Shown here piece after piece: positions 5,378 to 40,171 of a stretch of DNA of 40,351 nucleotides. The number at the start of each line of letters is the position of its first letter. Positions within the stretch are counted from its first letter, which is position 1. The position numbers were made by a program, and so were the translations under genes. Origin of the DNA: an uncultured bacterium. GTDB taxonomy: Bacteria; AUK180. Under the pieces are notes generated by a model. That model was not told the DNA's origin and searched no databases. It saw only the letters and a program-made list of their open reading frames with translations. Location: assembly GCA_937863565.1 (NCBI GenBank), contig CALMGJ010000027.1:1-40351 (forward strand), read 5' to 3'.

Positions 5378-7087
5378 ATGAAAAGATCGATGTTGGCCTT
5401 TTTTCTTCTCCCTATTATCATTTTCGCCTCCATACCTCCGGGATATTACGATACCGCTACCGGAACGGGAGAGGCATTAAAAACCCAACTTTACAATATC
5501 ATCAAGGGCCACACATCGAAATCATACGATTATCTGTGGACGGCATTCCAGACAACGGATAAAAAATCCAACGGCAAGGTCTGGGACATGTACTCCGATG
5601 TCCCCGGCGGAACCCCGCCTTACGAGTACACGTTCGTTACGGATCAGTGCGGGAACTACGGCGGAGAAGGAGAGTGCTACAACAGGGAGCATTCTTTCCC
5701 GAAGAGCTGGTTCAATGATGCTTCACCGATGTATACGGACCTCTTCCATCTATATCCTACCGACGGATACGTGAACGGTCAGCGCAGCAATTACCCCTTC
5801 GGTGACGTCGGAAGCGCCTACTGGACATCACAGAACGGTTCCAAGGTAGGCACATGCTCCGATCCGGGATATTCCGGAACGGTCTTCGAACCGCGGGACG
5901 ATTTCAAGGGTGATTTCGCGAGGACATATTTCTATATGGCGACAAGATACGAAAATGTGATCGCATCTTGGGAAACATATGACAGCAACGGTGACGCCGT
6001 TCTCGACGGCACCTCATATCCTTGTTTTGAACAATGGGCGATCGATATGCTCCTGGCCTGGCACACGGCTGACCCCGTAAGTGCAAAGGAGACGGCCCGC
6101 AATGATGCCGTGCACCTGATACAGGGGAACCGCAATCCATATATCGATCATCCCGAATGGGTTCAAGCCGTATGGGGCACTCCCGAAGAGGACACGGCCC
6201 CGCCTTCCTTTGCGGGTCTCAAGAGCATTACGGGGAATTCCGCGGCCGCTACGATCACCCTGGCCTGGGACGCGGGAAGCGACGCCTCCCTGCCTCTTAC
6301 ATATCTGATATTCAGATCGGGCACGAGCATGAGCTATAATTTTTCTTCCCCGTATGCCACGACCCAGAACCTTTTTTATTCGAACAGCTCGCTTCTTCCG
6401 GACACGACATATTACTATATAGTCAGAGCCAGAGATGCTTCAGTGAACCTCAATACCGATACAAATACTAAGGAATTTTCTCTTTATCTCGAAGAGCCTC
6501 CGCCGGATAATGAACCCCCGGTCTTTGCCGGGATAAAATCTATAACGGGCGACAATGCTTTAAAAGAGATAACGGTCTTTTGGGATTCCGCTGCCGATGC
6601 CTCCGCTCCGGTGACGTACCTCGTATTCAGGTCCACCGCCAGCATGGCATATGATTTTCTTTCCGCGTTCACTGAAACGCAGGCATTGTCCTATACGGAT
6701 ACCGTGCTTACGGAAGGAGTCACTTATTATTATATCGTGCGTGCAAGGGATTCATCTTTTGCCCAGAACACCGACTCCAATAATGTTGAGTTCTACTTTC
6801 ATATCATACAGCCGGCCACGGAATTCGCTGATGCGAATATCCTTCTGTATCCCAATCCCTATACATATGCTTTCGATTACCTCTATTTAGGCACGCCTGT
6901 CGAACTTGATTCCGCCGTACTTTATTCTGCGGACGGATTGAAAACGGCCAAGCTGGACCTTTCAATCCGGGATGAAGTCTTGAAGACTTATTCCGTTGAT
7001 CTTCCCAAGATCAAAAGCGGAGTGTATTTCCTCGTTTTAAGTTCGGGTAAAGAAGCGAGGATATTCAAACTCTGCGTGATCCGGTAA
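5378..7087 (+). CDS. Secreted endonuclease I/Bsn-family nuclease with two FN3-like domains and a T9SS-like C-terminal domain
   Basis: Signal peptide; NREHSFPKSWF, DLFHLYPTDGYVNGQRSN, FKGDFAR.YFYM, QGNRNPYIDHPEW; tandem ~100-aa repeats with TYYYIVRARD; tail LYPNP...SGVYF...KLCVIR. Confidence 0.92.
   Translation: MKRSMLAFFLLPIIIFASIPPGYYDTATGTGEALKTQLYNIIKGHTSKSYDYLWTAFQTTDKKSNGKVWDMYSDVPGGTPPYEYTFVTDQCGNYGGEGECYNREHSFPKSWFNDASPMYTDLFHLYPTDGYVNGQRSNYPFGDVGSAYWTSQNGSKVGTCSDPGYSGTVFEPRDDFKGDFARTYFYMATRYENVIASWETYDSNGDAVLDGTSYPCFEQWAIDMLLAWHTADPVSAKETARNDAVHLIQGNRNPYIDHPEWVQAVWGTPEEDTAPPSFAGLKSITGNSAAATITLAWDAGSDASLPLTYLIFRSGTSMSYNFSSPYATTQNLFYSNSSLLPDTTYYYIVRARDASVNLNTDTNTKEFSLYLEEPPPDNEPPVFAGIKSITGDNALKEITVFWDSAADASAPVTYLVFRSTASMAYDFLSAFTETQALSYTDTVLTEGVTYYYIVRARDSSFAQNTDSNNVEFYFHIIQPATEFADANILLYPNPYTYAFDYLYLGTPVELDSAVLYSADGLKTAKLDLSIRDEVLKTYSVDLPKIKSGVYFLVLSSGKEARIFKLCVIR
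6191..6804 (+). repeat. Intragenic tandem duplication of FN3-like domain
   Basis: DTAPPSFAGLKSITG...TYYYIVRARD..NTDTN (~6191-6489) vs DNEPPVFAGIKSITG...TYYYIVRARD..NTDSN (~6506-6804). Confidence 0.85.
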
Positions 7088-13174: not shown

Positions 13175-14737
13175 ATGAGAAAAACGGGTGTAATCTTTAC
13201 TTACGGGCCTTCAGTATCAGATTCTCGCGTCTTGAAGAAAATGCTTGCCTCCGCGGACGGAATAAGGCTCAATTTCTCCCATATGAAAAGAGGGGAGATA
13301 AAGGGCCTTACGGCCCGTATCAGAAAGATCGAGAGCGAGCTTGATGCATTCATACCCGTTTTCGGGGATATTTCCGGTACAAAGATCAGACTGAAATACG
13401 GGGGAGAGCCGAAGAAAGGGGATATCCTGAGACTTTCCCCCGAAGATCTCAATATCCCCGAGATAATCAAATTCCTAAAACCCGGCGAAAGAGTACTGAT
13501 AGACGACGGCAAGATCGCAGGGAAGATAAGATCCCTGCGCTCCGGCTCTCTTTCGGTAGCGATCACCTGCGGAGGGATACTTCCTCCCAATAAAGGCATC
13601 AGCTTTCCCGATTCGAAGCTCGAGATCCCTTGCATCAGTAAAAAGGACATCGAAGACATCGAAGAGGCCGCCTTGGCCGGCGTTGATTTTCTTTTTCTTT
13701 CTTTCGTCAACAAAGCGGACGATATTACGGGAATAAAAAAAGCAGTGCATGCTTTAAGATCGGATATACCCGTCATCGCGAAGATCGAAACGAAGAATGC
13801 CGTAAAGAACATAAAAAAAATCATCGAATGCTCGGACGGCATTCTGATCGCGCGCGGCGATCTCGGCAGTGAGATGCGCACGGAAGAGGTCCCCATTATA
13901 CAAAAAACCATCGTGAAGATGGCCAATGAAGCGGGTAAGCTCACTTTCGTTGCGACCGGCATACTCGATTCGATGATAAAAAGCGGAATACCTCTCAGAG
14001 CCGAAGTAGCAGATATTTCCAATATGGTCGAGGAAGAGGTGGATGCCGTTATGGTCACATCCGAGACCTCCATCGGCGAAGCGCCCCTTAAAGTGCTTGA
14101 AGTCCTTAACAGGGTCCTGAAAAAAAGCGAGGCGTATTACGATCCGAGGACGGATAAATCCTCTTTCGTGATAAAAAGCCTCCGTTTCTCGAGAACGAAG
14201 GCCATTGCAAGATCGATATACACTAATTCCGAGGAGAACGATGCCAGGGCGATCATCAATGTGACGAATTCCGGGGAAACATCCTTGTTCTGTTCAAAAT
14301 ACAGGCCCACATCTCCGATCTTCGCCGTATCGGATTCCGCTGTTACTTTAAGACGGTGCAGGATAATGTGGAATGTCCGGCCGCTTTTCATCAAAAATGC
14401 TCAAAAGGCCGGCACGGACCGCATCATAGAAGAAGCCGGGAAAAGGATCCGCCTCAAAGCCGGTGATATCGTTCTTATTTCCAAAGGTTTTCCTGAGGGA
14501 GCAGCAGGCAATACGAACAGTTTTTCGGTGTTTACAGTGAAAAGAAAAGGGCCCGGGAACAGTAAAAACCCCGGGATCGACAGCGGCCTCTGCGTCCTCT
14601 GCGGAAAATGCGTCAATATATGTCCGTTCGGGATCTTCTATTTCGATAAAGGCATTATTAGAACAAGGGATCACGAAAAATGTATTAAAGACGGCTTATG
14701 CACAGCAGGATGCCCGGTCAAGGCGGTGAAAATATGA
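13175..14737 (+). CDS. pyk: Pyruvate kinase with C-terminal ferredoxin-like Fe-S domain
   Basis: RLNFSH, D..GTKIR, LIDDG, IAKIE, DGILIARGDLG.E, RAEV.D..N, PK_C domain; tail CVLCGKCVNICP...CIKDGLCTAGCP. Confidence 0.93.
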   Translation: MRKTGVIFTYGPSVSDSRVLKKMLASADGIRLNFSHMKRGEIKGLTARIRKIESELDAFIPVFGDISGTKIRLKYGGEPKKGDILRLSPEDLNIPEIIKFLKPGERVLIDDGKIAGKIRSLRSGSLSVAITCGGILPPNKGISFPDSKLEIPCISKKDIEDIEEAALAGVDFLFLSFVNKADDITGIKKAVHALRSDIPVIAKIETKNAVKNIKKIIECSDGILIARGDLGSEMRTEEVPIIQKTIVKMANEAGKLTFVATGILDSMIKSGIPLRAEVADISNMVEEEVDAVMVTSETSIGEAPLKVLEVLNRVLKKSEAYYDPRTDKSSFVIKSLRFSRTKAIARSIYTNSEENDARAIINVTNSGETSLFCSKYRPTSPIFAVSDSAVTLRRCRIMWNVRPLFIKNAQKAGTDRIIEEAGKRIRLKAGDIVLISKGFPEGAAGNTNSFSVFTVKRKGPGNSKNPGIDSGLCVLCGKCVNICPFGIFYFDKGIIRTRDHEKCIKDGLCTAGCPVKAVKI

Positions 14738-16017: not shown

Positions 16018-18483
16018 TTATCGTATCACGGCGATCTTGCCGGTAAAAGTGACGCCGCCATATTTTTCGACCGTGTAGAAATAGATCCCGCTTTTTACCG
16101 TTCTCCCGTCTTCGTTCTTGAGGTCCCAGATATGCCCGTTCTTGGGGAGAGTCCTGACAAGTACTCCTGCTGCATCGTAGATCCTTATGATGCCCTGCCC
16201 GTCGAGTTCGATGAACCTTACTTCCCCGCCTTTCACAACAGGATTGGGATAGGCAAGGGCATCGTCCGGATCGAAATGATATTCATCAGTAAGCCCGGCG
16301 AACCAGGCGATGGCACGCTCCAGGAATTCAGCGAGAGGATCGGTTATTCGTTCTATTGAGAAAGGGCAGAAGATGGATTTGAAACCGAGGTCTTCTGAAT
16401 AACGGGGATTGCGTATCCCGATCTTCGAGCCGGAGATATTTTGGAAAATATGCACTGCATTATCCACGGGATTCGTACGGTAGATGGAGAGTTCATACGC
16501 CGGATCGGAGAGCGTAACTGCAAGGCCTTCCGTCACAGGGTCCTTAAATATTCCGAAGAGGTTCTCTTCGTTCGCGAATTCAAGTTTGGCGAAACCGGCA
16601 ATGCCGAGATAATCGGAAGAGAATTCCCGTATTTCGGGACTGTCGACGGCATCGAAATTCTTCAGAAGATAACGGCTCGAGATCAGGATATTGCCGCCGG
16701 CATCGAGGAAATCTTCTATCAAAGATATCTCGCCTCTTTCGAACAGTTTCTCGGAACCCTTGATCCCCGTATTCCAGACAACATGCCGGAATCCGTCCAG
16801 GAGCGTTCCGGGGAAAGTATCTCCGGAAGATCTTATGTCGTAGACGGTATGGTTGATGTATCTTTCCGAAAGCGCTTCCGAGATGATCTGCTCGAACGTG
16901 TCCCCGTCATCGTCGTCCACGAGAAGGACGATAGGTTCGCCGATATTGAGATAAGCGTAAAGGGTCTCGGAAAAATCGAAATATCCCGTGGAAAGATCGA
17001 TCCTGAGGCGTTCCGTACCGAAGCCTGTATAAGCGGCATTCACCGTACCGGCGACTGTCAGCGTGAAAGTATCTTTGTCCCTGACATCGCTTCTGGTCAA
17101 TATCTCCGCGGATATATCGGAGAAATCGTACACCTCGGATACGGCAGCCGTGACAGTGTCGATCTTGAAATTGGAATCATTGCGCAAGGTCATCGTGCAT
17201 AAGAAACTCTCTCCCTGTTCCAGAATGCCGTCTGTATCGCCGTCGTCAAGATCCGTTGAAATGAGAGTAAAGCCCTGCCACGGTTCGGTATGCTTTATGT
17301 ATTCGTTCCAGAAAGTATCCGAGGCAAAAAGGTTCTCTTCGTAATATTCATTGTAATAAGCGGCCTCGGGAAAATACGCAGCGATGCCGAAAGATCTGCT
17401 GTCATAAGAGAAGTTGCTTATCACTGCGCCTTCGACGGAACCGATAAGGGCCTGGATAGAATAGAAAAGGTCATCAGGGATGCTGTAAGCCTTTATAAGC
17501 GTAAGATAATCAATAAGATCGATATTGAGAGCATTGGCCGATACATAATATTTAAGAGCCCCGTCGTATGCATCGTTCAGTTTCTGGCTGTAGCCGTTGT
17601 GATAGTAATGTCCGGCCATGACGGCGAACCTGTTCATCGCGCTTTTTACTTCCCCGAAAGCGGTGCTGTCAACTGCGGACATGGTTCTTCCGGTGATGAT
17701 CGGATTTGAGGTATTATCCCCGTTGTCGCCCTGTGAATATGCCTCGATGATCTTCTGTGCTACCTCTTCAGCATCGACATTCCCGGCATTTGCCCGTATA
17801 TAATCGAGGAAATACCAGTATGACCACCCGTCGCCCCAGACCGTATCCTCCGAACCTATCACATAATCGGCGAACGGAGTTATATAGTTCAGATTCTCGG
17901 CCATCTGATTGAAGCAAACATCGAAGCCGATGATGTCTAACTTTCTGCCCAGATAAGAGTACATTCCGTTCAATGCCGCAGTGACATCGCCTTCCGTATA
18001 GTATAGGAAATCCATCGAAGTATCGTCCTGGAGAACAGCTTTGCTGTCATCCCCTCCGTTCCTCGAGACCGCGGTCTTGAACCATCCCGTTCCGTGATCC
18101 CAGATCACGAAAAGATATCTGTCGGCGGGGTAATTATCCACTCCCCATTCAAAAAAATCTATAAGGCTCTGCGGATCGGCCATATTGACCTCGCCGAGGC
18201 CCATTTCTGCATTCGATGTTTCCGGCGTCATATCTTTTTCTACTTTGAAGCGCCAGCAATCGGTCCAATCCCCGTACGCTGTTGAATAGGAAGGCCTTCT
18301 GTCGAACTGAACGAGGATATTAAGAAATGTATCCGATCCCGTTTTTGCCATCTCCATGAAATCATCCACGGCATATGCTTCGAGATTGTTATCCCCGTCG
18401 AGGAAGACCATTACGGTCCATGATGCGGCCGATGCAATTGCACAAATAGAAAGTAAGGATAGAAGAAAGACCGCTTTTTTCAT
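16018..18483 (-). CDS. Secreted clostripain-family (peptidase C11) protease with T9SS/FlgD-like C-terminal domain
   Basis: Signal peptide; WTVMVFLDGDNNLE, catalytic WDHGTGW and FDVC; VLLVDDD accessory domain; tail AYPNP...IYDAAG.LVR..WD.KN..G..V.SGIYFY..GKIAVIR. Confidence 0.9.
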   Translation of the reverse strand: MKKAVFLLSLLSICAIASAASWTVMVFLDGDNNLEAYAVDDFMEMAKTGSDTFLNILVQFDRRPSYSTAYGDWTDCWRFKVEKDMTPETSNAEMGLGEVNMADPQSLIDFFEWGVDNYPADRYLFVIWDHGTGWFKTAVSRNGGDDSKAVLQDDTSMDFLYYTEGDVTAALNGMYSYLGRKLDIIGFDVCFNQMAENLNYITPFADYVIGSEDTVWGDGWSYWYFLDYIRANAGNVDAEEVAQKIIEAYSQGDNGDNTSNPIITGRTMSAVDSTAFGEVKSAMNRFAVMAGHYYHNGYSQKLNDAYDGALKYYVSANALNIDLIDYLTLIKAYSIPDDLFYSIQALIGSVEGAVISNFSYDSRSFGIAAYFPEAAYYNEYYEENLFASDTFWNEYIKHTEPWQGFTLISTDLDDGDTDGILEQGESFLCTMTLRNDSNFKIDTVTAAVSEVYDFSDISAEILTRSDVRDKDTFTLTVAGTVNAAYTGFGTERLRIDLSTGYFDFSETLYAYLNIGEPIVLLVDDDDGDTFEQIISEALSERYINHTVYDIRSSGDTFPGTLLDGFRHVVWNTGIKGSEKLFERGEISLIEDFLDAGGNILISSRYLLKNFDAVDSPEIREFSSDYLGIAGFAKLEFANEENLFGIFKDPVTEGLAVTLSDPAYELSIYRTNPVDNAVHIFQNISGSKIGIRNPRYSEDLGFKSIFCPFSIERITDPLAEFLERAIAWFAGLTDEYHFDPDDALAYPNPVVKGGEVRFIELDGQGIIRIYDAAGVLVRTLPKNGHIWDLKNEDGRTVKSGIYFYTVEKYGGVTFTGKIAVIR

Positions 18484-26225: not shown

Positions 26226-26337
26226 TGAGCGTCCTGTGTGTCCGCTCTTCCACTCGGGCTGATTCCTTCCGGGTTTCAATCCCGTTTATCATCAAAGAAA
26301 ATCATCTGATAAAAATACTTCGTTATCCGCTCATTAT

Positions 26338-26359
26338 CCGGGGCTGTTCCCGGTTTTTT
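26338..26359 (+). terminator. Putative intrinsic terminator
   Basis: CCGGGG-CTGT-TCCCGG hairpin followed by T6. Confidence 0.45.
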
Positions 26360-26402
26360 GCCGGATATTATCCGTGTCCCGGACAAAGATAGGGGATACT
26401 TA

Positions 26403-27020: not shown

Positions 27021-27661
27021 TGATGCCGGAACACTCACTGGAAGAAGATCTCAGTATAATGAATATTTTCAATGATTTGAGAAAGAGCGAAGGAGTGCTA
27101 AAAAAGACCCTGATGCATTCTGCCGCGCTTTTGCTCTCTGTCTTCATAGTCGGTATAGGATTCAGCTGCGGGTATCTTTACCGTTACGTTAAACAACTCT
27201 TAGATACGGGAGAGGACAACCTTCCCCGGTGGGAAATCATGAACATCGAAGATCTGAAAGCAATGTATATAAGCGGGTGGAGAGCTTTTCTCCCGCTTCT
27301 GCCGTTCATTGTTCTGCTCACGATCCTCTACCTGACCGTTCCGCACCGCTGGTTCATCATACCTGTTCTGATGTCGGTCCTCTCGTTCATTCTTATCCCG
27401 TATGTGTTCATCAGATATGCGTCGAGGGGTTCTATCAAGGAAACTTTTTCACCCTCCGTCTTTTTTATTTTTCTAAAAGAACGGTTTCTTTATATAGGCA
27501 TAGCGCTTGTGATCAGTCTGCTGCTTTTCGCTGTTTCCCTTCTGGGTATTCTATTCATTATCGGCTTTTTCTTTACTTTTTCCTGGTTTTTAGTTATAAT
27601 ATTAAATATGTGGACGCGAATATATAAATTTGAAAACAAAAACGGAGGGCATTATGTTTAA
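27020..27661 (+). CDS. DUF4013-like membrane protein
   Basis: Multiple TMs; GY...............LPRW motif. Confidence 0.7.
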   Translation: MMPEHSLEEDLSIMNIFNDLRKSEGVLKKTLMHSAALLLSVFIVGIGFSCGYLYRYVKQLLDTGEDNLPRWEIMNIEDLKAMYISGWRAFLPLLPFIVLLTILYLTVPHRWFIIPVLMSVLSFILIPYVFIRYASRGSIKETFSPSVFFIFLKERFLYIGIALVISLLLFAVSLLGILFIIGFFFTFSWFLVIILNMWTRIYKFENKNGGHYV

Positions 27662-28139
27662 GAAGGTTAAAAAGTATCTGATCTTTTCGCTGCCTTTGAT
27701 CCTCGCGCTGGCTCTTTTCGCGGGATGCTCGGAAGAGGATTCTCCTCTTACTTTCTATGTGAAGGATGTTGATCCTCTATCGACAAGTTATTCCGGCGCG
27801 GCCGTTCCCGTAACGGTCGATCTGGCGCTTGAGTACACAGGCTCGAACAATGATGCCGCCCCTTCGGGTGCGACCATAGATAAATTGACCTTATCGGCGA
27901 GGACGATCTCCGGTACGGATATCGGCACGGTCACCCCCATCACGCTCGTATTCACAGCGTATGTGGCGACTGGCGGAACATCGACTTTCACGGCCGATGA
28001 TGTTATTTGGACGAGTATGAAAACTTATATGGACGCTGCGGCAACCCCAAGCCAGACCGTTGTGCATTTTGTTTTCAATGCTACCGACACGTCCGGGAAC
28101 ATCCTTACGGCCGAAGGGGATATGACCCTTACCAAATAA
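27654..28139 (+). CDS. Hypothetical lipoprotein
   Basis: GGAGG SD; lipobox LFAGC; Thr-rich beta-type body. Confidence 0.8.
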   Translation: MFKKVKKYLIFSLPLILALALFAGCSEEDSPLTFYVKDVDPLSTSYSGAAVPVTVDLALEYTGSNNDAAPSGATIDKLTLSARTISGTDIGTVTPITLVFTAYVATGGTSTFTADDVIWTSMKTYMDAAATPSQTVVHFVFNATDTSGNILTAEGDMTLTK

Positions 28140-28181
28140 GGATTCGGCAGCATCTTTCATATTTTTTCCCGAACATGATAA

Positions 28182-28255
28182 CGGGGAGTAGCGCAGCCGG
28201 CTAGCGCGCATGGTTTGGGACCATGAGGCCGCGGGTTCGAGTCCCGCTTCCCCGA
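28182..28255 (+). tRNA. tRNA-Pro(TGG), CCA not encoded
   Basis: Acceptor CGGGGAG/TTCCCCG, anticodon stem CATGG/CCATG with loop TT-TGG-GA, T-arm GCGGG-TTCGAGT-CCCGC. Confidence 0.96.
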
Positions 28256-28367
28256 TATTCTGTTCACCACCCTCCGTATCCCGCACATCCCTTGCCGCCT
28301 TTGAAAAGGATCTTATTTTGATTTTCAGACCGGCAGATGCGGACAGATACAACGACAATAGCATTGC

Positions 28368-28440
28368 GCACCCTTAGCTTAACGGATAGAGCACCGGACT
28401 TCGACTCCGCAGGTTGCAGGTTCAAATCCTGCAGGGTGCG
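28368..28440 (+). tRNA. tRNA-Arg(TCG), CCA not encoded
   Basis: Acceptor GCACCCT/AGGGTGC, D-loop GGATA, anticodon loop CT-TCG-AC, T-arm GCAGG-TTCAAAT-CCTGC; C27:C43 mismatch. Confidence 0.93.
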
Positions 28441-28510
28441 CTTATGCTTTGATTTTTTTCCCTTGTTATCAGTGAAAATAGATTAAACCGGTGAATCCCT
28501 GATTACGCTT

Positions 28511-30511
28511 TCAGCTCAGCGGAAAGAATTCCATCTTTTTCTGTTCGATCGCTTTCAGAACTATATCCCGATTCTCATGATCATTGAAGTGATCATTGCT
28601 TTGAGACCTGATGTTCTTAAAAGCCCTTCTGTATGATTCCGTATCGGGTTTCGGCTCATTGCCGCTCAATATGTCCACGCGAATAAGTCTGCCCTTATCG
28701 AAAAGAAGCGAATTCAAAATGCCTTTCCCGTTCTTGAAAAGAGCATATCCCGTAAGCCCCTTGCTTTTGATCCCGTCCTCGATCTCGGTAATCATCTCCT
28801 CGTATGCCGCAATAAATTTTTCCTTTCCCGGATTGCTCCCGTTGAAATTAAAGATGAATTCCTTTATCGCATTTACGGGATCTTCCCAGAAGCCTTTGAA
28901 AAAAGCCTCAAAACTCCTCCTGTTCGCTTCCTTGCAGGGAGCGAGGCACTCCGTTTTCAAATAGTGGGTGCAAAACAGGGAATCCTCGATGGGATGCTCG
29001 ATGCAGAAAGGGAATCCCATCTTCTTGAGAAGATAATCCATGGCTTCGGCCTTCAGCGGAGTGGCCGAAAAAGGTCCGAGAAAAGCTCCCTCGCCCCCGC
29101 AGGGATGTTCGCACAGTACGGCTGTCCTTATTGAGTTCCTTCCGATCGCTTTAAGGAAAAAATAATCTCTTGGCAGATGGTTCACTTTTCTGAAAAGGGC
29201 TTTCTCACTGCGATACCTATTGAATTCATTGATCATATTCTGAACCGAATCTTCACAAATAGAATATTCAATGTCGCAAGTCTTCTCAACCAGAGTTTTA
29301 ATGAACGGGTATTTATCAACTTTCTTCAGCATTTCAAGGAGCATTTTCTTAACATTTTCCGTCTTTGTCAAAAAGAGAACACGTTTCTCTTTGTTCTTGA
29401 AGACGAGAAGCCCGGGCTTTTTCGGAAGGGCATTCAATTTCTCGGGTTTCACTTTAAGATCGACTATAGTCCCTGAATCCCCTTTAAGATCAGTGCTTTT
29501 AAAAAGAAAAATATGTCCTTCAGTACTTTTAAGGCGCAGATCCTTAAAGTTGAAATGGCATTTAAATGCTTTCTGCTTCAAAGCATTAAGATCGAGCTTC
29601 TCGAGCTCCTCTTTGGTAAGAACACCCTCGAATCGGATCTTCCCGTAACTCTGAGGTTTGATAAGAGAAAGAATGCGCTTCACTTCGCGCTCGTTCTTTT
29701 CAGGCTCATTTTCAAAAAGCTGTATTCTGAATTCGAACATATCCCTGGCGGGAAGCTCGATGAAATCGGTTTTAAAGGATGATCTGTCGCCGACCTGCAC
29801 CCGTAAAAAACCCTTTGGTTCATTGATCTCGGAGAATGTTACGCGTTCGGAGGAACCCGGAAAATGAAACCGTCCCATCTTCTGATATTTATGTATGTGG
29901 CCTGCAGCGATGTAATCGAATGCCTTAAATTCCGGAAGATGCGAAACAACATCCGGGAATTTCCTGAACGCAAAGTTCGTGGGCCCTACTTTGGCTTTGT
30001 GAACGAGCTGATGCATCATGAGAATATTGAAATCGGCTCTTTCGGTGAACCCCGCGCTTTTCAGGCTCTCCTCGAAGACGGGGTCTATATTGCTCTTCTT
30101 GGAGTTGATATAGGGTATCCCGGTTATGGAAACGGTCTTTCCCTTCACTTCAAACCTGAAGGTGCCCGGTTCGTTGAATACGACGATATTCTTGAACGTG
30201 GACGCCACTTCGTTCAAAAGAAGCGACCTTTCGTGATTTCCGGGTACAACGAATATCCGTATTCCTTTCCCGTCAATGTATTTAAGGGGCTTCAGAGCCA
30301 TTTGAAGGATATAAAGAGGGGGCGTTTCATTCTCAAAAAGATCGCCCGTATGTAGAATAAAATCGATGTCTTTTATGTTCTGAAGGATGTAGTTCACAAC
30401 TCTGAAGTAGTTCGAAAGGAAATCAAAACCCCTGAAGGCAGTGTAGTCCTTCGGCGGTTTTACCGGAAAATGATCGCCAAGGTGATTGTCGCTGAAATGG
30501 ATAAAAAGCAT
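28511..30511 (-). CDS. SbcD/Mre11-like metallophosphoesterase nuclease fused to degenerate UvrC-like (GIY-YIG + 4-Cys) module
   Basis: SDNHLG, TGDLF, PGNHE, MMH, AAGHIH, FPGSSER..FSE...KGF; then LPKKPG..., FLGPF, C-x10-C-x7-C-x3-C. Confidence 0.85.
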   Translation of the reverse strand: MLFIHFSDNHLGDHFPVKPPKDYTAFRGFDFLSNYFRVVNYILQNIKDIDFILHTGDLFENETPPLYILQMALKPLKYIDGKGIRIFVVPGNHERSLLLNEVASTFKNIVVFNEPGTFRFEVKGKTVSITGIPYINSKKSNIDPVFEESLKSAGFTERADFNILMMHQLVHKAKVGPTNFAFRKFPDVVSHLPEFKAFDYIAAGHIHKYQKMGRFHFPGSSERVTFSEINEPKGFLRVQVGDRSSFKTDFIELPARDMFEFRIQLFENEPEKNEREVKRILSLIKPQSYGKIRFEGVLTKEELEKLDLNALKQKAFKCHFNFKDLRLKSTEGHIFLFKSTDLKGDSGTIVDLKVKPEKLNALPKKPGLLVFKNKEKRVLFLTKTENVKKMLLEMLKKVDKYPFIKTLVEKTCDIEYSICEDSVQNMINEFNRYRSEKALFRKVNHLPRDYFFLKAIGRNSIRTAVLCEHPCGGEGAFLGPFSATPLKAEAMDYLLKKMGFPFCIEHPIEDSLFCTHYLKTECLAPCKEANRRSFEAFFKGFWEDPVNAIKEFIFNFNGSNPGKEKFIAAYEEMITEIEDGIKSKGLTGYALFKNGKGILNSLLFDKGRLIRVDILSGNEPKPDTESYRRAFKNIRSQSNDHFNDHENRDIVLKAIEQKKMEFFPLS

Positions 30512-31005
30512 CAGAATTTCTTTTCCAGATACATTTTCAGAAGGCCGCGTTCGCTTTTTACGCTCACTTCAAGGTAATGCGCATCAAAAAAAGCATCGAA
30601 AGCATTGTATAACCAGAACAAAAGCACTCCGGAGATCAGGTATTGATGAAGAAAGTATTTATTCACATATTCATCGTAAAGGGGCTCAGAGCCTTCCGGT
30701 CCGTTCTTGGAGAAATAATCCTCATAGGTTTCATAAGCCTTCTGGACGGTACCGTAACTTTTAAAAGTCCCGTAGAGCATTCCGCCTGCGAAGGAAAGGA
30801 ATACGGCGGATTTAATATATTTCCCGTTGGAAAACTGTCCGAAACCCGGAACGATCGCCGATTGCACGAGCCGGAGAACCGGTTTACTTACAAGCTCTTT
30901 TCCCGTTGCTCCTGAAGGAGATAGAAAGAGAAGTATTGCGGCAATAACGCTCAGTCCGCCGAATTGAATTTTGCGAATATTTTTTCCTGAAGGAGTTTTT
31001 TCCAT
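30511..31005 (-). CDS. DUF5683-like exported/membrane protein
   Basis: SAIVPGFGQFSNGKYIK and WLYNAFDAFFDAH motifs; start uncertain (55-nt overlap with upstream gene). Confidence 0.75.
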   Translation of the reverse strand: MEKTPSGKNIRKIQFGGLSVIAAILLFLSPSGATGKELVSKPVLRLVQSAIVPGFGQFSNGKYIKSAVFLSFAGGMLYGTFKSYGTVQKAYETYEDYFSKNGPEGSEPLYDEYVNKYFLHQYLISGVLLFWLYNAFDAFFDAHYLEVSVKSERGLLKMYLEKKF

Positions 31006-31673
31006 TCTTCGTTGATGAACTCTACTTTGGGAACATATCTTCCCTCAACTTTCACGGAAGGTTCCCCTATATTGTTCCCTCTCTGGCTCATGAATATAGG
31101 TATGCTTTTAATCCAGTATTCCCCATTCAGTTCAACCTCGGCCCATCCCTTTAAAGCACCGCTTTCATATTTTTTTATCTTGATCTCCGTGATAGAAGGC
31201 AGCGGCCCTTTTCCGGCAACGGACTTTTTCTGGATGCCATCTCCGAGGAAGTTCAGGAATTTGATCTCATTGGCCCAGAGGAAATAATACTTGCTTTCGC
31301 CGGAAACGGAATAGGGGAGAACGATCCTTCCGTCCTCGAATGTTATCCCTTTTACCAGCACGGCGCCGTCCAGTTCGACCGAGTATTCTTCCGCGCTCTG
31401 GTTCACAGCGGTGATCCTGGTAGCATATGCCTTGGCGGGAACGGCCGTTTTCGGGGTGTCTGCAGGAGCTTTATCCGTAACCGTAGTTGAAGGGGCTTCT
31501 TCGCGTATTTCCTCGCCAGGTCCGGAGGCTTGAGGCTCGGCAGTCTCTTTCCCGGGCGTTTCAAGGGTTTTTTCCGCTTCGAATTTCCTTTCTACTTTTT
31601 CAACGTTCTCCGCCTTTTTACATGAGAAGAACGCGAGCATCAATACGAGAGCTACAATGATCGTCTTTTTCAT
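30951..31673 (-). CDS. Lipoprotein with P/A/T/E-rich linker and tandem SpoVG-like domains
   Basis: MKKTIIVALVLMLAFFSC lipobox; C-terminal ITEIKI..ALKGWAEVELNGEYWIKSI.I......IGEPS.K.EG.Y....FINEEWKKLLQEKIF follows the SpoVG pattern. Confidence 0.72.
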   Translation of the reverse strand: MKKTIIVALVLMLAFFSCKKAENVEKVERKFEAEKTLETPGKETAEPQASGPGEEIREEAPSTTVTDKAPADTPKTAVPAKAYATRITAVNQSAEEYSVELDGAVLVKGITFEDGRIVLPYSVSGESKYYFLWANEIKFLNFLGDGIQKKSVAGKGPLPSITEIKIKKYESGALKGWAEVELNGEYWIKSIPIFMSQRGNNIGEPSVKVEGRYVPKVEFINEEWKKLLQEKIFAKFNSAD

Positions 31674-31676
31674 CTT

Positions 31677-32327
31677 CTAACCTTCCTTAAAATTTTCTTT
31701 CCATATATTGAAAAAATGCGCAGTATGTTTCTGCGGTATCAGGATCCTCTCCACGGTCCCGTATATCTTTACATGATATCCGCGGTCGAATATCTCAAAA
31801 ACAGGCTTGGCGTTCTTGTCGAGGAAAGAAAGTTCCTTTCCGTTATTGAAGAACATGAACTCGCCGCTTTGAGACATCCGCTCCATCTCATTCTCCACAA
31901 GACCCTGTATCTCCTTTTTTATATAGAATTTTTCGGAGAACCGGACATTGATAACGGTGAAGTCCTGGCTTTCAACGAACGCTTCTTCTATATTGAAACG
32001 GCTGATATTGCCTTTATTGAGAAGCACGCGCTTCCAGGCAAGCTCTTCAAGGTTATTCGTTCCTCCAAGAGAGAAGAGATTAACTCCGGGTTCTGTCAGA
32101 TTGTGGGCATGTTTTTCGTGGAGTACGGCGATGAATTTCGTGAACCGCAGCTCTGAAGACGGCTTTACGGCAAATTCACCCTTTTTTATCTTCTGGGAGT
32201 ATTTCAAAAGAGCGTTCTTGTATCCGAGTTGCTCGGTCATATATAAAAAAAGGATCAGTACGGAATCAAAGGCGGTTTTATTTAAAAATTCATTCAAGTA
32301 ATGAAGCGCAAGGAAATCCTCGCTCAT
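31677..32327 (-). CDS. Hypothetical protein
   Basis: 216-aa ORF translationally coupled to pilB (TAATG overlap); no motif recognised. Confidence 0.75.
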   Translation of the reverse strand: MSEDFLALHYLNEFLNKTAFDSVLILFLYMTEQLGYKNALLKYSQKIKKGEFAVKPSSELRFTKFIAVLHEKHAHNLTEPGVNLFSLGGTNNLEELAWKRVLLNKGNISRFNIEEAFVESQDFTVINVRFSEKFYIKKEIQGLVENEMERMSQSGEFMFFNNGKELSFLDKNAKPVFEIFDRGYHVKIYGTVERILIPQKHTAHFFNIWKENFKEG

Positions 32328-34033
32328 TAATTGCTATCCGCGGCGGTAGTCCTGAATATCTCCTCGACTGTAGTCGTTCCCTTGAGGGCCTTTATTACGG
32401 CAGACTCGCGCAGCGTTTTCATTCCCTGTTTCCTGGCCAGGGCTTTAATGTCGTCCACAGATGCTCTTTTTACGATAAGGGACCGCATCTCCTCGGTGAC
32501 GAAAAGCACTTCGTAAACGGCGGTTCTTCCTTTATAACCGGTATTGTTGCATTTAGAGCAGCCTTTGCCTTTATAGAAATCAGTCGTAGAGACCTTATCC
32601 TTGGGAATGCCGAGGTCCATCTTCGTCTCCGGAGTGACATCCTCGTCAACGATCTTGCAATTCGAACAGACCTTTCTTACGAGTCTCTGTGCAATGATCA
32701 TCACGAGGGAGCTTGCTATATTGAAAGGTTCGATGCCCATATTGCCGAGTCTTGCGATCGTGTCCGGGGCTGAGTTCGTATGAAGCGTTGCAAAGACAAG
32801 GTGGCCGGTTTGAGCGGCCTTAACGGCGATCTCTCCGGTCTCGAAATCTCTAACTTCACCTATCATGACTATGTCGGGATCAGCTCTGAGGAACGATTTC
32901 AACGCGGAAGCAAAGGTAAGCCCTACTTCCGGTTTTGCCTGGACCTGATTCAATCCCTCGATATCGAATTCGACAGGGTCCTCCGCTGTCATGATGTTCA
33001 CGTCCTCGGTATTCTTCAATTTCAAGGACGTGGACAGTGTCCAGGTCTTGCCCGATCCTGTTGGTCCCGTTATCAGGATCATTCCCCACGGCGAATCAAT
33101 GCCCTTCGTAAAGCGCTCGAGTTGAGCCTGCTCGAAACCGAGCATATCGAGAGTAACTTCTCCGGAACCTTTGTCCAGAATTCTTATGACCACTTTTTCC
33201 CCCCATACGCACGGTATTATGGCAACTCTGAGGTCTATGTTCCTGTTATCATAGGTCACCCTCGCCTTGCCGTCCTGAGGCACTCTTTTCTCAGCAATAT
33301 TAAGATGCGAAATGATCTTGATCCTCGAAACAAGTCCGGCGTTGATTTGCCTGGGCAGCTTGTCGGCGGTATGAAGGACGCCGTCCATCCTGTATCTTAA
33401 CCTCGTGTACTTTTCATAGGGTTCTATATGGATATCCGAGGCCTTCTTCCTGATGCCGTCAAGGATGATCTGATTAACTAGTTTGACGAGAGGTTTATCA
33501 TCGGCAGCGACGCCGGCCACGGCCTCCTCCTCCATCTCGTCGCTTTCCGATACGACATCCATGACCGTTTCCGAAAGGTCTTTAGTCTTATCCTCCAGAT
33601 GCTCTCTTGCCGATTTATAATATTTATCCACGGCAGCCGTAAGGCTCCTTTTCGTTGAGATCGCAGGTTCGATATTAAGGTTTGTGATGAACTTAAGGTC
33701 GTCCAGTATCTTCCTGTCCGTCGGGTCCATCATAGCCACGGTAAGAGTATCTCCGAGCTTCTCTATTGGGATAACGAGATGTTTTTTTGCGACCTCGCCG
33801 GGAATGAGTTTGAGTATCTCCGGGTCCACTTCCCATTCATCGAGGTTCACAGCTATCATTCCGAGCTGTTGCTGCAGGAAGAAGAGGATCCTCTCTTCCG
33901 GAACGAATCCGAGATCGATAAAGATCTGGCCAATTTTACCGCCGTTCTTTTTCTGTTCGTCAAGAGCCTGCTGCAGCTGTTCGGGCGTAAGCAGACCTTC
34001 TCCGATCAGAATCTCGCCGAGTTTCATTTCCAC
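32327..34033 (-). CDS. pilB: Type IV pilus assembly ATPase PilB (GspE family) with MshEN domain
   Basis: KLGEIL...LT.EQL..AL..Q N-terminus; ASDIHIEP, R.DGVL, PQDG, Walker A GPTGSGKT, EDPVE, GEVRD, TGHLVFATLH, tetracysteine zinc motif. Confidence 0.95.
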   Translation of the reverse strand: MEMKLGEILIGEGLLTPEQLQQALDEQKKNGGKIGQIFIDLGFVPEERILFFLQQQLGMIAVNLDEWEVDPEILKLIPGEVAKKHLVIPIEKLGDTLTVAMMDPTDRKILDDLKFITNLNIEPAISTKRSLTAAVDKYYKSAREHLEDKTKDLSETVMDVVSESDEMEEEAVAGVAADDKPLVKLVNQIILDGIRKKASDIHIEPYEKYTRLRYRMDGVLHTADKLPRQINAGLVSRIKIISHLNIAEKRVPQDGKARVTYDNRNIDLRVAIIPCVWGEKVVIRILDKGSGEVTLDMLGFEQAQLERFTKGIDSPWGMILITGPTGSGKTWTLSTSLKLKNTEDVNIMTAEDPVEFDIEGLNQVQAKPEVGLTFASALKSFLRADPDIVMIGEVRDFETGEIAVKAAQTGHLVFATLHTNSAPDTIARLGNMGIEPFNIASSLVMIIAQRLVRKVCSNCKIVDEDVTPETKMDLGIPKDKVSTTDFYKGKGCSKCNNTGYKGRTAVYEVLFVTEEMRSLIVKRASVDDIKALARKQGMKTLRESAVIKALKGTTTVEEIFRTTAADSN

Positions 34034-34046
34034 GCTACACTCCTAT

Positions 34047-35468
34047 TTATTTGTTCTCGAAAAAAGCCCGGTACGCCCTGAAAGTCTCCCATAGATCCGC
34101 TTTAGATACAACCTCATAGGGCGAATGCATGCCGAGAAGTCCGGGTCCGCAATCTATCGTGTTCATGCCCCATTTCGAGAGATATTTCGCGATCGTGCCT
34201 CCGCCGCCCTCGTCTATTTTGCCGAGCTCGGCGAACTGCCAGTGTACGCGAGCCTTATTAAATATACCTCTTATTCTTGCCGTGAATTCTGCAGTGGCCT
34301 CATTCGTGGAATACTTGCCTCCGCTTCCGGTGAATTTAGTGAGAACTACGCCATAGCCTGAAATGGCCGCATTGTTGATCTCATGAACTTCCTTGAACAT
34401 CGGATTAACAGCCGCGTTAACATCCGCGGAGATCGCTTCGGAGCGTGAAAGGACATCATTGATCTGAGCAAAATCATTCTTCCTGCCTGTGAACGCGAGT
34501 AATTTCACGATAATATCGAGAAGCCAGCTCGACTGCGCACCTGTCGGTCCGTCGCTGCCGATCTCTTCTTTGTCTATAAGAAATGCGATAGAAGTATAGT
34601 CGGGCTGTTCTTTCAGTCCCTCTACGGCTTTCCAGGCAGTATAACCGCAGATGCGGTCATCCTGGCCGTAAGCTCCCACGAAAGTCCTGTCGAATCCCGC
34701 ATCACGGGCTTTATCGGCCGGCACTATCTCCAAATCGGCGGAAACGAAATCCTCTTCCTTGATCCCGTACTTCTTATTGAGAAGTCCCAGCAGGAATTCT
34801 ACAAGTTTTGCTTTTGATTTCTCATTCCGGACTTCTTTCTGGCCTGCAATAACGTTCAGCTGCTCGCCGGTGATGATATCGGGAAGGGTCTTCGTATACT
34901 GTACGTTCTTTGCAAGATGCGGAAGGAGATCCGGTATTACGAAAACGGGATCATTATCGTCCTCGCCCATTTCGATCTTCACTTTTTTACCGTTCTCCAG
35001 AACTGCTATTCCGTGAATGGCAAGCGGCCTGGAAACCCACTGGTATTTTTTTATCCCGCCGTAATAATGTGTTTTCATAAGTGCGATATTCGAGTCCTCA
35101 AAAAAAGGTTTCTGCTTGAGATCAAGCCTTGGGGCATCGATGTGAGCGCCCACTAACCTGAATCCGTTCTCGATCCCTTTCTTGCCGAGATAAACAACAG
35201 CCAGGGCACGGTCCCGGTTCCCTATCAGGACCTTTTTCGTGCCTTTTCCGGCTTTGCCGAAGAACTCCCATCCGCTCTTCTTCGACATCTCCGAGAAATA
35301 CACATAAGATTCTCTTTCCGTTTTACAGGAAGAGATGAATTTTTTGTAGTCTTCGGCAAATGCGAATACGCTCTTGGTATCCTTCTCGGAATAAATGCTC
35401 CAGAGGTTCTTGAGCTCTATTCTCCTCAAAGAAGGTTCAGTCCTCCGTTTTCTTGCGGTTTTTGCCAT
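34047..35468 (-). CDS. M18-family aminopeptidase (ApeA-like)
   Basis: GAHIDAPRLDLK, THYYGGIKKYQW, GQDDRIC, DKEEIGS, SADV, MHSPYE. Confidence 0.95.
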   Translation of the reverse strand: MAKTARKRRTEPSLRRIELKNLWSIYSEKDTKSVFAFAEDYKKFISSCKTERESYVYFSEMSKKSGWEFFGKAGKGTKKVLIGNRDRALAVVYLGKKGIENGFRLVGAHIDAPRLDLKQKPFFEDSNIALMKTHYYGGIKKYQWVSRPLAIHGIAVLENGKKVKIEMGEDDNDPVFVIPDLLPHLAKNVQYTKTLPDIITGEQLNVIAGQKEVRNEKSKAKLVEFLLGLLNKKYGIKEEDFVSADLEIVPADKARDAGFDRTFVGAYGQDDRICGYTAWKAVEGLKEQPDYTSIAFLIDKEEIGSDGPTGAQSSWLLDIIVKLLAFTGRKNDFAQINDVLSRSEAISADVNAAVNPMFKEVHEINNAAISGYGVVLTKFTGSGGKYSTNEATAEFTARIRGIFNKARVHWQFAELGKIDEGGGGTIAKYLSKWGMNTIDCGPGLLGMHSPYEVVSKADLWETFRAYRAFFENK

Positions 35469-40001: not shown

Positions 40002-40078
40002 ACGCCCGTAGCTTAATGGATAGAGCATTGGATTGCGGATCCAAAGGTTTAGGGGTTCAAGTCCCCTCGGGCGTGCCA
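40002..40078 (+). tRNA. tRNA-Arg(GCG), CCA encoded
   Basis: Acceptor ACGCCCG/CGGGCGT, D-loop GGATA, anticodon stem TTGGA/TCCAA with loop TT-GCG-GA, T-arm AGGGG-TTCAAGT-CCCCT. Confidence 0.95.
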
Positions 40079-40079
40079 T

Positions 40080-40171
<92 letters not shown>

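What the first reader, a model, noticed from the sequence alone, without database searches (positions are those of the whole stretch)
30951..31673. Exported lipoprotein carrying tandem SpoVG-like nucleic-acid-binding folds
Seen: lipobox signal, ~65-aa flexible P/A/T/E linker, a degenerate domain (~31415-31220, ITAV...SVELDGAVLVKGI......IVLP) and a clearer one (~31193-30951). Established: SpoVG is a small cytoplasmic dimeric DNA/RNA-binding protein. Inference: a single-chain pseudo-dimer tethered outside the cytoplasm; lying two genes downstream of pilB, it could be a periplasmic or surface nucleic-acid receptor analogous to ComEA.
Basis: partly seen in the sequence, partly recalled or inferred. 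Interest (0 to 1): 0.75.

Follow-up and report, generated by a model that had tools for sequence, protein, structure and literature searches.

The report
Exported lipoprotein with doubled SpoVG fold
This gene encodes a lipid-anchored, exported protein built from two copies of a fold otherwise known from a small DNA/RNA-binding regulator that works inside the cell, so it may bind nucleic acid outside the cell, but that is untested.

Summary
Window 30951..31673 (-) is a real 240-aa gene under purifying selection (dN/dS 0.06-0.10 among close orthologues). It has a lipobox (Cys18) and a 65-residue disordered E/A/K/T/P linker. Two equal beta7-alpha domains follow (pLDDT >90).

The C-terminal domain is SpoVG by Pfam (35.8 bits against a cut-off of 29.6) and by fold (TM 0.73-0.87 to solved SpoVG). 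The N-terminal domain is a degenerate SpoVG copy. This shows only through family profiles (hhalign 97.3%), through relatives with two Pfam stretches (5 of 16), and through a weaker fold match.

The protein belongs to a sparse family of exported tandem-SpoVG proteins from uncultured bacteria (17 relatives among 1.84 billion representatives, one of them a false hit).

- The pilB adjacency sits inside a ~20-kb block collinear across all related MAGs, so it is not independent evidence.
- Only one of the two basic residues essential for SpoVG DNA binding is kept in the C domain, and none in the N domain.
- The constant partner is a DUF5683 membrane-protein gene (8 of 8 loci).

Nucleic-acid binding outside the cytoplasm is my best guess (about 0.4). 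I found no paper on exported SpoVG.

The parts
30951..31673 (-). Whole gene: 240-aa exported tandem-SpoVG lipoprotein (P0001), stop codon included
   Evidence: ORF. Orthologues in 7 genome loci. dN/dS 0.06-0.10 among L004-L006.
31620..31673 (-). Signal peptide with lipobox (residues 1-18, lipidated Cys18 predicted)
   Evidence: A PROSITE-like lipobox rule is met. It is conserved in 11 of 15 full-length relatives and in L001-L006.
31425..31619 (-). Disordered tether, residues 19-83, rich in E/A/K/T/P. It holds the invariant VERKF motif (residues 27-31, window 31581-31595).
   Evidence: pLDDT 48-61. Composition. V27 E28 R29 K30 are invariant in A2, and VERKF is seen in all of L001-L006. Linker identity to orthologues is 15-33%.
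31224..31424 (-). N-terminal degenerate SpoVG-like domain (residues 84-150). It carries the invariant aromatic strand YYF.W (129-133).
   Evidence: No Pfam hit in this protein. hhalign of N against C profiles: 97.3%, E 1.7e-11 family-wide, but 3.5% within the close subfamily. Same order of secondary-structure elements as the C domain. Folded alone, 8 of the top 10 PDB matches are SpoVG chains, at E 0.17-0.42.
30954..31202 (-). C-terminal SpoVG domain (residues 158-240)
   Evidence: Pfam PF04026, 35.8 bits against cut-off 29.6, residues 161-237. Family profile against PDB SpoVG: E 1.2e-17. Foldseek top 10 are all SpoVG chains, TMt 0.73-0.87, rmsd 1.6-3.4 A.
30511..31005 (-). Downstream partner gene: DUF5683 membrane protein (164 aa). 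Its start overlaps the lipoprotein gene's 3' end by 55 nt.
   Evidence: Pfam PF18935, 33.8 bits against 26.7. The gene follows the lipoprotein gene in the window and in 7 of 7 loci.
31677..32327 (-). 216-aa ORF between pilB and the lipoprotein gene. It is lineage-specific and of unknown nature.
   Evidence: No Pfam, NCBIfam or PHROG family. Absent from 7 of 7 related loci. Atlas model is poor, with no neighbour above TM 0.38 by query.
32327..34033 (-). pilB: type IV-A pilus assembly ATPase with an N-terminal MshEN / c-di-GMP-binding domain
   Evidence: TIGR02538, 698.8 bits against cut-off 675.65. Pfam T2SSE + MshEN.
28511..30511 (-). Last gene of the same-strand run: 666-aa Mre11/SbcD-like phosphoesterase with a UvrC-like (GIY-YIG region) middle part. 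No signal peptide seen.
   Evidence: Pfam Metallophos. NCBIfam partial hits to Mre11/SbcD (residues 1-211) and to the UvrC/DEDD-exonuclease N-regions (residues 353-532). Present downstream in 6 of 7 loci.

Best explanation
Shown:
- The gene encodes a protein that is exported by a lipoprotein signal and lipid-anchored at Cys18.
- A ~65-residue disordered tether holds a rigid two-domain head.
- The head is an internal duplication of the SpoVG fold: the C-terminal copy is close to canonical, and the N-terminal copy has diverged.
- The protein belongs to a sparse family of exported tandem-SpoVG proteins from uncultured bacteria. In its own lineage the gene is always followed, with overlapping reading frames, by a DUF5683 membrane-protein gene.

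Inferred (about 0.4):
- The head binds a nucleic acid (single- or double-stranded DNA, or RNA) in the periplasm or on the cell surface.
- Binding would go mainly through the C-terminal copy. That copy keeps K208 (equivalent to S. aureus R51) and K225 (the basic position in the helix that sets specificity in SpoVG).
- The tether would let the head reach away from the membrane, so that extracellular or periplasmic nucleic acid is held at the envelope, for retention, uptake or feeding.

I do not infer a mechanistic tie to the pilus motor PilB.
For: Export:
- Lipobox rule met.
- Conserved in 11 of 15 full-length relatives and in 6 of 6 complete genome orthologues.
- Two further relatives (P0007, P0017) have a signal-peptide-like N-terminus without Cys (by eye).

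Fold:
- Pfam SpoVG above its cut-off.
- Family profile against PDB SpoVG, E 1.2e-17.
- AF2 pLDDT 91-98 over residues 81-240.
- Top 10 PDB fold matches are all SpoVG.

Duplication:
- hhalign of N against C profiles, 97.3%, E 1.7e-11.
- Two Pfam SpoVG stretches in P0007, P0011, P0013, P0015 and P0017 (5 of 16 true relatives).
- The N domain folded alone has SpoVG as its best PDB matches.

Nucleic-acid link:
- SpoVG proteins bind DNA and RNA (PMC3688583, passages; PMC4959528 and PMC11086051, abstracts in the listing).
- K208 aligns with the essential R51. K208, K225 and K235 are invariant in the close subfamily.
- Atlas structural neighbours that align over both domains (149-166 residues) include clusters annotated SpoVG + DnaG zinc ribbon. 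A DNA polymerase B + SpoVG cluster aligns over 120 residues at TM 0.38.
- Some exported relatives are strongly basic: P0017 net +35, P0011 +12, P0003 +11.

Real gene: dN/dS 0.06-0.10.
Against: - The first residue of the essential basic doublet (S. aureus K50; the single mutant K50A abolishes binding, PMC3688583) is V207 here, and V or I in all five close relatives.
- The N domain has no basic residue at either doublet position.
- The folded part of this protein has net charge 0 and pI 6.7. Relatives range from -15 to +35, so there is no consistent polyanion-binding signature.
- Within the close subfamily alone the N and C domains are not detectably homologous (hhalign 3.5%).
- HMM-to-sequence cross-hits between the domains are mostly not significant: C profile on N domains iE 0.66-24; N profile on C domains iE 8.8e-4 to 10.
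- No competence or DNA-transport gene lies in the 40-kb window.
- No binding experiment exists for any exported member. I found no paper.
Confidence: 0.4

Rival explanations
1. Envelope scaffold. The SpoVG fold has been re-used outside the cytoplasm as a protein-, glycan- or peptidoglycan-binding module. It works with the DUF5683 membrane protein encoded by the overlapping downstream gene. Nucleic acid plays no part.
For: - The DUF5683 gene follows the lipoprotein gene in the window and in 7 of 7 loci. This includes L007, where the genes further downstream differ.
- The reading frames overlap by 52-58 nt in the window and L001-L006, and by 11 nt in L007.
- Half of the SpoVG basic doublet is lost in the C domain and all of it in the N domain; net charge is 0.
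- The N domain carries a subfamily-invariant aromatic strand, YYF.W, that canonical SpoVG lacks at the aligned place.
- A VER[KF]F motif is shared between the lipoproteins' tethers and the N-terminal extension of the L007 DUF5683 protein.
- A DUF5683 protein (PG0140) is listed in a P. gingivalis outer-membrane-vesicle proteome (PMC13744359, one passage).
Against: - No known example of a SpoVG fold binding anything other than nucleic acid (my knowledge; none seen).
- K208 and K225 are kept invariant.
- Gene adjacency within one lineage may be inherited rather than functional.
Confidence: 0.3
2. One reading: a ComEA-like DNA receptor that works with the type IV pilus driven by the neighbouring PilB, taking up DNA.
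For: - In 6 of 6 loci that reach upstream, pilB lies directly upstream on the same strand. In the window it is one ORF away.
- The architecture is tethered and extracytoplasmic, like ComEA.
- The window also encodes a 569-aa Endonuclease I homologue at 5378..7087.
Against: - The whole ~20-kb block is collinear in the related MAGs. It includes an M18 aminopeptidase, an ABC transporter, a GH57 branching enzyme, recR and dnaX. Adjacency therefore carries no independent weight.
- PilB is 65-74% identical across these loci while the lipoprotein is 33-42%, so they do not co-vary.
- There is no pilin motif, and no pilC, pilM-Q, comEC or comEA-type HhH domain in the window.
- The gene contexts of the distant relatives could not be seen.
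Confidence: 0.1
3. A cytoplasmic SpoVG-type regulator whose N-terminus has been mis-read: wrong start, or an uncleaved membrane anchor with the head inside the cell.
For: All characterised SpoVG proteins are cytoplasmic (PMC3688583).
Against: - The MKK + hydrophobic + lipobox-Cys N-terminus is conserved in every complete orthologue.
- The only other Met residues are M12 and M195, so no alternative start would give a soluble two-domain protein.
- The N-terminal positive charge followed by a lipobox predicts export of everything after Cys18 (established signal-peptide rules; inference).
Confidence: 0.03

Closest known systems
SpoVG (Pfam PF04026; B. subtilis, S. aureus/epidermidis, B. burgdorferi, L. 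monocytogenes; PDB 2ia9, 2i9x, 2i9z)
   Same: The C-terminal domain matches the Pfam model above its cut-off. It superposes on solved SpoVG at TMt 0.73-0.87. The P-S-x-K and helix-K positions are kept.
   Different: - This protein is exported and lipid-anchored, not cytoplasmic.
- It has two fused copies instead of one ~100-aa chain that oligomerises.
- It scores far below the NCBIfam SpoVG equivalog cut-off (22 against 108 bits).
- The first residue of the essential basic doublet is lost.
ComEA (competence DNA receptor of the periplasm / cell surface)
   Same: Predicted placement only: a membrane-tethered head outside the cytoplasm that might hold DNA.
   Different: There is no helix-hairpin-helix domain and no competence genes nearby. 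DNA binding is untested. The ComEA features are recalled, not taken from a call.
Tandem-SpoVG modules in other proteins (ESM Atlas clusters: 219-aa and 176-aa Elusimicrobiota proteins; 619-aa DnaG-zinc-ribbon + SpoVG; 810-aa DNA polymerase B + SpoVG)
   Same: Structural alignment over both domains: 149-166 residues, TM by query 0.54-0.59 for four clusters.
   Different: The primase and polymerase fusions are replication proteins without export signals, as far as the automatic names tell. The polymerase row has TM of only 0.38.
Surface lipoproteins of Bacteroidota with the lipoprotein export signal C-X-K-(D/E)2-X (PMC5080379)
   Same: A Lys or Arg sits at +3 in 7 of 8 sequences compared. There is an exact C-A-K-E-D match in L004, L005 and L006. 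The window has C-K-K-A-E.
   Different: The window protein does not match the optimal motif. The phylum of the organism is unknown (record titles say only 'bacterium'; one says Candidatus Atribacteria).

Membership tests
SpoVG domain family (Pfam PF04026) | Match to the Pfam model at or above the gathering score (29.6 bits) | tested here: met
   The C-terminal domain, residues 161-237, scores 35.8 bits, E 9.1e-9. The N-terminal domain gives no stretch in this protein.
SpoVG domain family (Pfam PF04026) | SpoVG three-dimensional fold | tested here: met
   Full model: the top 10 PDB matches are all SpoVG chains, TMt 0.73-0.87, prob 1.00, E 6.6e-4 to 1.2e-2. N domain alone: 8 of the top 10 are SpoVG chains, TMq 0.50-0.74, but E 0.17-0.42.
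SpoVG orthologue (NCBIfam NF009749 'septation regulator SpoVG', equivalog) | Score at or above the curated cut-off (108 bits) | tested here: not met
   22 bits, E 1.2e-4. The protein is a SpoVG-domain protein, not an orthologue of the regulator.
SpoVG as a nucleic-acid binder | Conserved doublet of basic residues (S. aureus K50-R51, B. burgdorferi R53-R54), each needed for DNA binding | tested here: not met
   The doublet aligns to V207-K208 in the C domain and to non-basic residues in the N domain. Requirement from PMC3688583 (passages).
SpoVG as a nucleic-acid binder | Binding of DNA or RNA | not testable with these tools
   Needs a binding assay.
Bacterial lipoprotein (signal peptidase II substrate) | Basic n-region, hydrophobic core and lipobox ending in Cys within the first ~40 residues | tested here: met
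   A regular expression after PROSITE PS51257 (recalled) matches with Cys18. It is conserved in orthologues. No dedicated predictor such as SignalP or LipoP was on hand.
ComEA | Helix-hairpin-helix DNA-binding domain | tested here: not met
   Pfam scan at E up to 1 lists only SpoVG.
ComEA | Genomic or functional association with the DNA-uptake machinery (comEC, competence pilus) | tested here: inconclusive
   pilB is adjacent, but within a collinear 20-kb block. No comEC, pilin, pilC or pilQ in the window. The rest of the genome was not available.
Type IV pilus lipoproteins (PilP, PilF/PilW type) | Match to the respective Pfam/NCBIfam models | tested here: not met
   No such family.

The most novel reading that the evidence does not exclude
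A previously undescribed extracytoplasmic nucleic-acid receptor. A lipid-anchored single-chain SpoVG pseudo-dimer on a long tether works with the DUF5683 envelope protein encoded by the overlapping gene. Together they capture extracellular DNA or RNA at the surface of uncultured diderm bacteria. This would be a functional counterpart of ComEA built from an unrelated fold, and would give DUF5683 its first function.
Probability: 0.15. Interest if true: 0.75.

Novelty: new variant of a known kind. Interest (0 to 1): 0.5.

Why it matters
SpoVG is known only as a small cytoplasmic DNA/RNA-binding regulator. A conserved family in which the fold is duplicated into one chain, given a lipoprotein signal and hung on a long tether outside the cytoplasm would extend where and how this fold is used.

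If the head still binds nucleic acid, these proteins are candidate receptors for extracellular DNA or RNA in lineages where no such receptor is known. Possible roles are uptake, biofilm matrix anchoring and nutrient scavenging.

If it does not bind nucleic acid, the family is a clean case of a nucleic-acid-binding fold re-used for an envelope function.

Either way it offers a first handle on DUF5683, a widespread family without a function. The protein is small and predicted with high confidence, so one expression construct and a gel shift would decide the main question.

Tried and rejected
- **Complex of the mature lipoprotein (19-240, alignment A1) with the DUF5683 protein (33-164, alignment A4).** Complex prediction returned 'no answer', score 0.00 in two runs, and the controls were not run. 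This is no evidence either way.
- **Fused or longer forms.** A search with profile A1 among proteins of 449-2000 residues found none at E <= 0.001. The tool itself calls this weak evidence.
- **Profile search at near lengths.** It returned only 4 proteins, all already known.
- **Single-sequence phmmer against PDB.** It found no SpoVG entry, only two chance hits at E 0.15 and 1.2. The family profile did find SpoVG.
- **P0008 (1978 aa, E 6e-8).** Rejected as a relative. It is a TIG-repeat protein with no SpoVG match, and I dropped it from the alignments.
- **P0009, P0014 and P0018.** Left out of A1: P0009 is a fragment, and P0014 and P0018 are four-domain proteins.
- **PHROGs.** Only two marginal, non-SpoVG hits for the window protein (E 0.006). 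phrog_27338 (unknown function) matches P0007 and P0017.
- **Atlas search by features.** No usable hit for the lipoprotein or for the 216-aa ORF.
- **Viral fold library.** Only single-domain phage SpoVG proteins, none at E <= 0.001.
- **Promoter and terminator scans of 28000-36500.** 15 sites of each kind against 9.7 expected from shuffles. I treated these as uninformative.
- **Composition of 26000-36000.** Even, GC 0.40-0.51, with no sign of a foreign island.
- **Other SpoVG-like ORFs or prepilin motifs.** None in the window or the loci.
- **The search for related loci with A1.** It failed because the alignment was too divergent. I repeated it with the closer alignment A2.
- **The listing of cluster members.** Could not be run because the database was switched off. 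Source names and accessions of the relatives are therefore unknown.
- **Closed collections.** The gene neighbourhoods of the distant relatives (P0006-P0018) stayed unchecked.
- **Pseudo-dimer geometry.** Whether the two domains pack like a SpoVG homodimer could not be tested. No coordinates were available.
Full report
**The gene**

Window 30951..31673 (minus strand) is a 240-aa ORF with an ATG start. An AAGGAAGG motif ends 7 nt upstream of the start. It lies in a run of same-strand genes that abut or overlap:
- M18 aminopeptidase, 34047..35468
- pilB, 32327..34033
- a 216-aa ORF, 31677..32327
- this gene
- a DUF5683 gene, 30511..31005, which overlaps this gene by 55 nt
- a 666-aa Mre11/SbcD-like phosphoesterase with a UvrC-like middle region, 28511..30511

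The gene is real. Orthologues exist in seven genome loci. Among the three closest to each other (L004-L006) dN/dS is 0.06-0.10 over the whole gene and 0.05-0.13 in the linker and domain slices, with no non-synonymous change in the C domain of one pair.

**Anatomy**

- *Signal.* Residues 1-18 (MKK, a hydrophobic run, FFSC) meet a PROSITE-type lipobox rule with Cys18. I recalled that rule and wrote it as a regular expression.
- *Tether.* Residues 19-83 are a 65-residue stretch of E12, A10, K9, T8, P7, with pLDDT 48-61. Its only conserved feature is VERKF at residues 27-31. V-E-R-K is invariant in the five-member close alignment, and the motif is present in all six complete genome orthologues.
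- *Head.* AlphaFold2 on a 14-sequence alignment gives pLDDT 91-98 for residues 81-240. There are two domains with the same order of elements, seven short strands then a helix, at 87-148 and 161-238. pTM is 0.66 although a third of the chain is disordered, so the model treats the two domains as one rigid body. The Atlas's own model (pTM 0.64) aligns over 149-166 residues to other two-domain proteins.

**The C-terminal domain is SpoVG**

- Pfam PF04026 scores 35.8 bits against a gathering score of 29.6, over residues 161-237.
- The family profile hits the three solved SpoVG sequences at E 1.2e-17 to 4.9e-16.
- The ten best PDB fold matches are all SpoVG chains: TMt 0.73-0.87, rmsd 1.6-3.4 A. Only the first is at E <= 0.001. 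The next non-SpoVG match has E 0.21 and probability 0.08.
- It is not an orthologue of the regulator. The NCBIfam equivalog scores 22 bits against a cut-off of 108.

**The N-terminal domain is a degenerate copy**

Evidence for:
- Among 16 true relatives scanned, five (P0007, P0011, P0013, P0015, P0017) give two SpoVG stretches. In alignment A1 their first domain aligns with residues 84-150 of the window protein.
- Profile-profile comparison of the N-domain columns against the C-domain columns of A1 gives 97.3% probability, E 1.7e-11, over 55 columns.
- Folded alone from seven orthologues (pLDDT 82.6; the five models ranged 48-83), the N domain has SpoVG chains as 8 of its 10 best PDB matches (TMq 0.50-0.74).

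Evidence that the signal is weak:
- Pfam does not see this domain in the window protein.
- Those PDB matches have E-values of 0.17-0.42, and none reaches 0.001.
- Within the five close relatives alone the signal vanishes (3.5%, E 0.012).
- HMM-to-sequence cross-hits between the domains are mostly not significant.

So 'tandem SpoVG-like folds, one degenerate' is correct. The degeneracy is real, and homology shows only through intermediates.

**The family**

- An exhaustive phmmer run over 1.84 billion representatives found 18 proteins at E <= 0.001, including the query. Five are at <= 1e-10.
- One of them, P0008, is a false hit on TIG repeats.
- Of the 15 full-length members, 11 meet the lipobox rule.
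- P0007 and P0017 look like ordinary secreted proteins (by eye). P0006 has a long hydrophobic N-terminus. P0010 has a GYF_2 domain instead.
- P0014 and P0018 carry four domains behind a lipobox.
- The family is therefore overwhelmingly extracytoplasmic.
- Atlas structural neighbours add Elusimicrobiota and Bacillota clusters, plus clusters named SpoVG + DnaG zinc ribbon and SpoVG + DNA polymerase B.
- The word-index searches found few members and no longer fusions.
- I found no paper on an exported or tandem SpoVG. The searches were SpoVG + lipoprotein + signal peptide (7 papers, none relevant by title or abstract), a six-term search, and 'SpoVG-like / domain / fold / family protein' (3 papers, none relevant by title or abstract start).

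**Neighbourhood**

The genome scan gave seven loci, all MAGs titled 'bacterium', one titled Candidatus Atribacteria.
- In the six loci that extend upstream, pilB lies directly before the lipoprotein gene. The 216-aa ORF of the window is absent from all seven.
- The whole stretch from dnaX and recR to the GH57 branching enzyme, about 20 kb, is collinear in these MAGs. PilB is 65-74% identical and the aminopeptidase 64-71% identical. These are members of one lineage, so the pilB adjacency is inherited synteny rather than independent evidence of a shared function.
- The window holds no pilin-type motif, no other pilus gene and no competence gene.
- The lipoprotein evolves much faster than its neighbours: 33-42% identity overall, with the C domain at 41-63%, the N domain at 30-39% and the linker at 15-33%.
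- The one association that survives a change of context is with DUF5683. In L007 the downstream genes are different (a 131-aa lipoprotein, a HIT-like protein), yet the next ORF is still a DUF5683 homologue. It has the invariant PG.GQ and DA..DAH motifs and a terminal Phe.
- The frames overlap by 52-58 nt in seven cases and by 11 nt in L007.
- A complex prediction for the pair gave no verdict.

**Does it bind nucleic acid?**

Background:
- For SpoVG, a doublet of basic residues (S. aureus K50-R51, B. burgdorferi R53-R54) is essential. Each single alanine mutant loses DNA binding.
- A six-residue stretch of the helix sets specificity (PMC3688583, passages read).

What the alignment shows:
- In the profile alignment to solved SpoVG, P-S-K-R corresponds to P205-S-V207-K208.
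- All five close relatives have V or I then K at the doublet. The N domain has no basic residue at either position.
- K208 and K225 are invariant in the subfamily. K225 falls at the fourth position of the specificity stretch, which is Arg in both the S. aureus and the B. burgdorferi sequences quoted in the paper.
- The head has net charge 0 here. Relatives range from -15 to +35.

The fold, the partial retention of the site and the replication-protein fusions favour a nucleic-acid ligand. The lost Lys and the neutral charge speak against the canonical mode. I put nucleic-acid binding at about 0.4, a non-nucleic-acid envelope role with DUF5683 at about 0.3, and a pilus-coupled ComEA-like role at about 0.1.

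**Where the protein ends up**

This is open. Bacteroidota send lipoproteins to the surface with C-X-K-(D/E)2-X (PMC5080379, abstract and section 9). L004-L006 match exactly (C-A-K-E-D). The window (C-K-K-A-E) does not. The phylum is unknown.

Weak hints of a diderm of the Bacteroidota-related kind are a below-threshold CHU_C type IX signal on a clostripain-like protease (21.6 against 27 bits) and DUF5683 itself.

**Verdict**

This is a new variant of a known kind: the SpoVG fold, duplicated and exported.

Noticed in passing
window 31677..32327 (-): A 216-aa ORF sits between pilB and the lipoprotein gene. It abuts both (it shares base 32327 with pilB and leaves a 3-nt gap before the lipoprotein ATG). 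It is absent from all 7 related loci and has no Pfam, NCBIfam or PHROG family and no Atlas neighbour. It is either a lineage-specific insertion or not a gene.
   Followed up: partly
window 31581..31595 (-); L001-L006 orthologues; L007 206..904: The motif VERKF lies 9-11 residues after the lipidated Cys and is invariant in the window protein and all six complete orthologues. The DUF5683 protein of L007 carries KKVERFFKVE in its own N-terminal extension. This may be a shared short linear motif for sorting or for a common partner.
   Followed up: partly
window 30511..31005 (-) and L001-L007: The DUF5683 gene always follows the lipoprotein gene, with a conserved long overlap (52-58 nt; 11 nt in L007). 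All eight DUF5683 proteins end in Phe and share the PG.GQ and DA..DAH motifs. One DUF5683 protein (PG0140) is listed in a P. gingivalis outer-membrane-vesicle proteome (PMC13744359).
   Followed up: partly
window 28511..30511 (-): A 666-aa protein joins an Mre11/SbcD-type phosphoesterase (residues 1-211) to a region resembling the N-terminal (GIY-YIG) part of UvrC (residues 353-532). It is conserved downstream of DUF5683 in 6 of 7 loci at only 32-37% identity.
   Followed up: no
window 13175..14737 (+): A pyruvate kinase (barrel + C-terminal domain) has a 4Fe-4S dicluster ferredoxin domain fused at its C-terminus (residues 466-519). This is an unusual architecture.
   Followed up: no
window 5378..7087 (+): An Endonuclease I homologue of 569 aa. 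The Pfam domain covers only residues 30-260, which leaves about 300 unassigned C-terminal residues. It is a likely secreted nuclease, in the same genome region as a candidate extracytoplasmic nucleic-acid binder.
   Followed up: no
window 32327..34033 (-): PilB carries an N-terminal MshEN / c-di-GMP-binding motif domain (NF053729, 66.7 bits against 38). It stands alone: no pilC, pilM-Q, pilT or pilin gene lies in the 40-kb window.
   Followed up: partly
window 16018..18483 (-): An 821-aa clostripain-family (C11) peptidase has a below-threshold CHU_C type IX secretion signal at its C-terminus (21.6 against 27 bits). This hints that the organism is a diderm related to Bacteroidota.
   Followed up: no
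proteins P0014 (424 aa) and P0018 (456 aa): These distant relatives have a lipobox followed by two tandem units, so four SpoVG-like domains in one chain. P0010 replaces the signal peptide with a GYF_2 domain.
   Followed up: no
window 28182..28441 (+) and 40002..40169 (+): tRNA-Pro(tgg) and tRNA-Arg(tcg) lie just beyond the end of the gene run. tRNA-Arg(gcg) and tRNA-Ser(cga) lie near the window's end.
   Followed up: no
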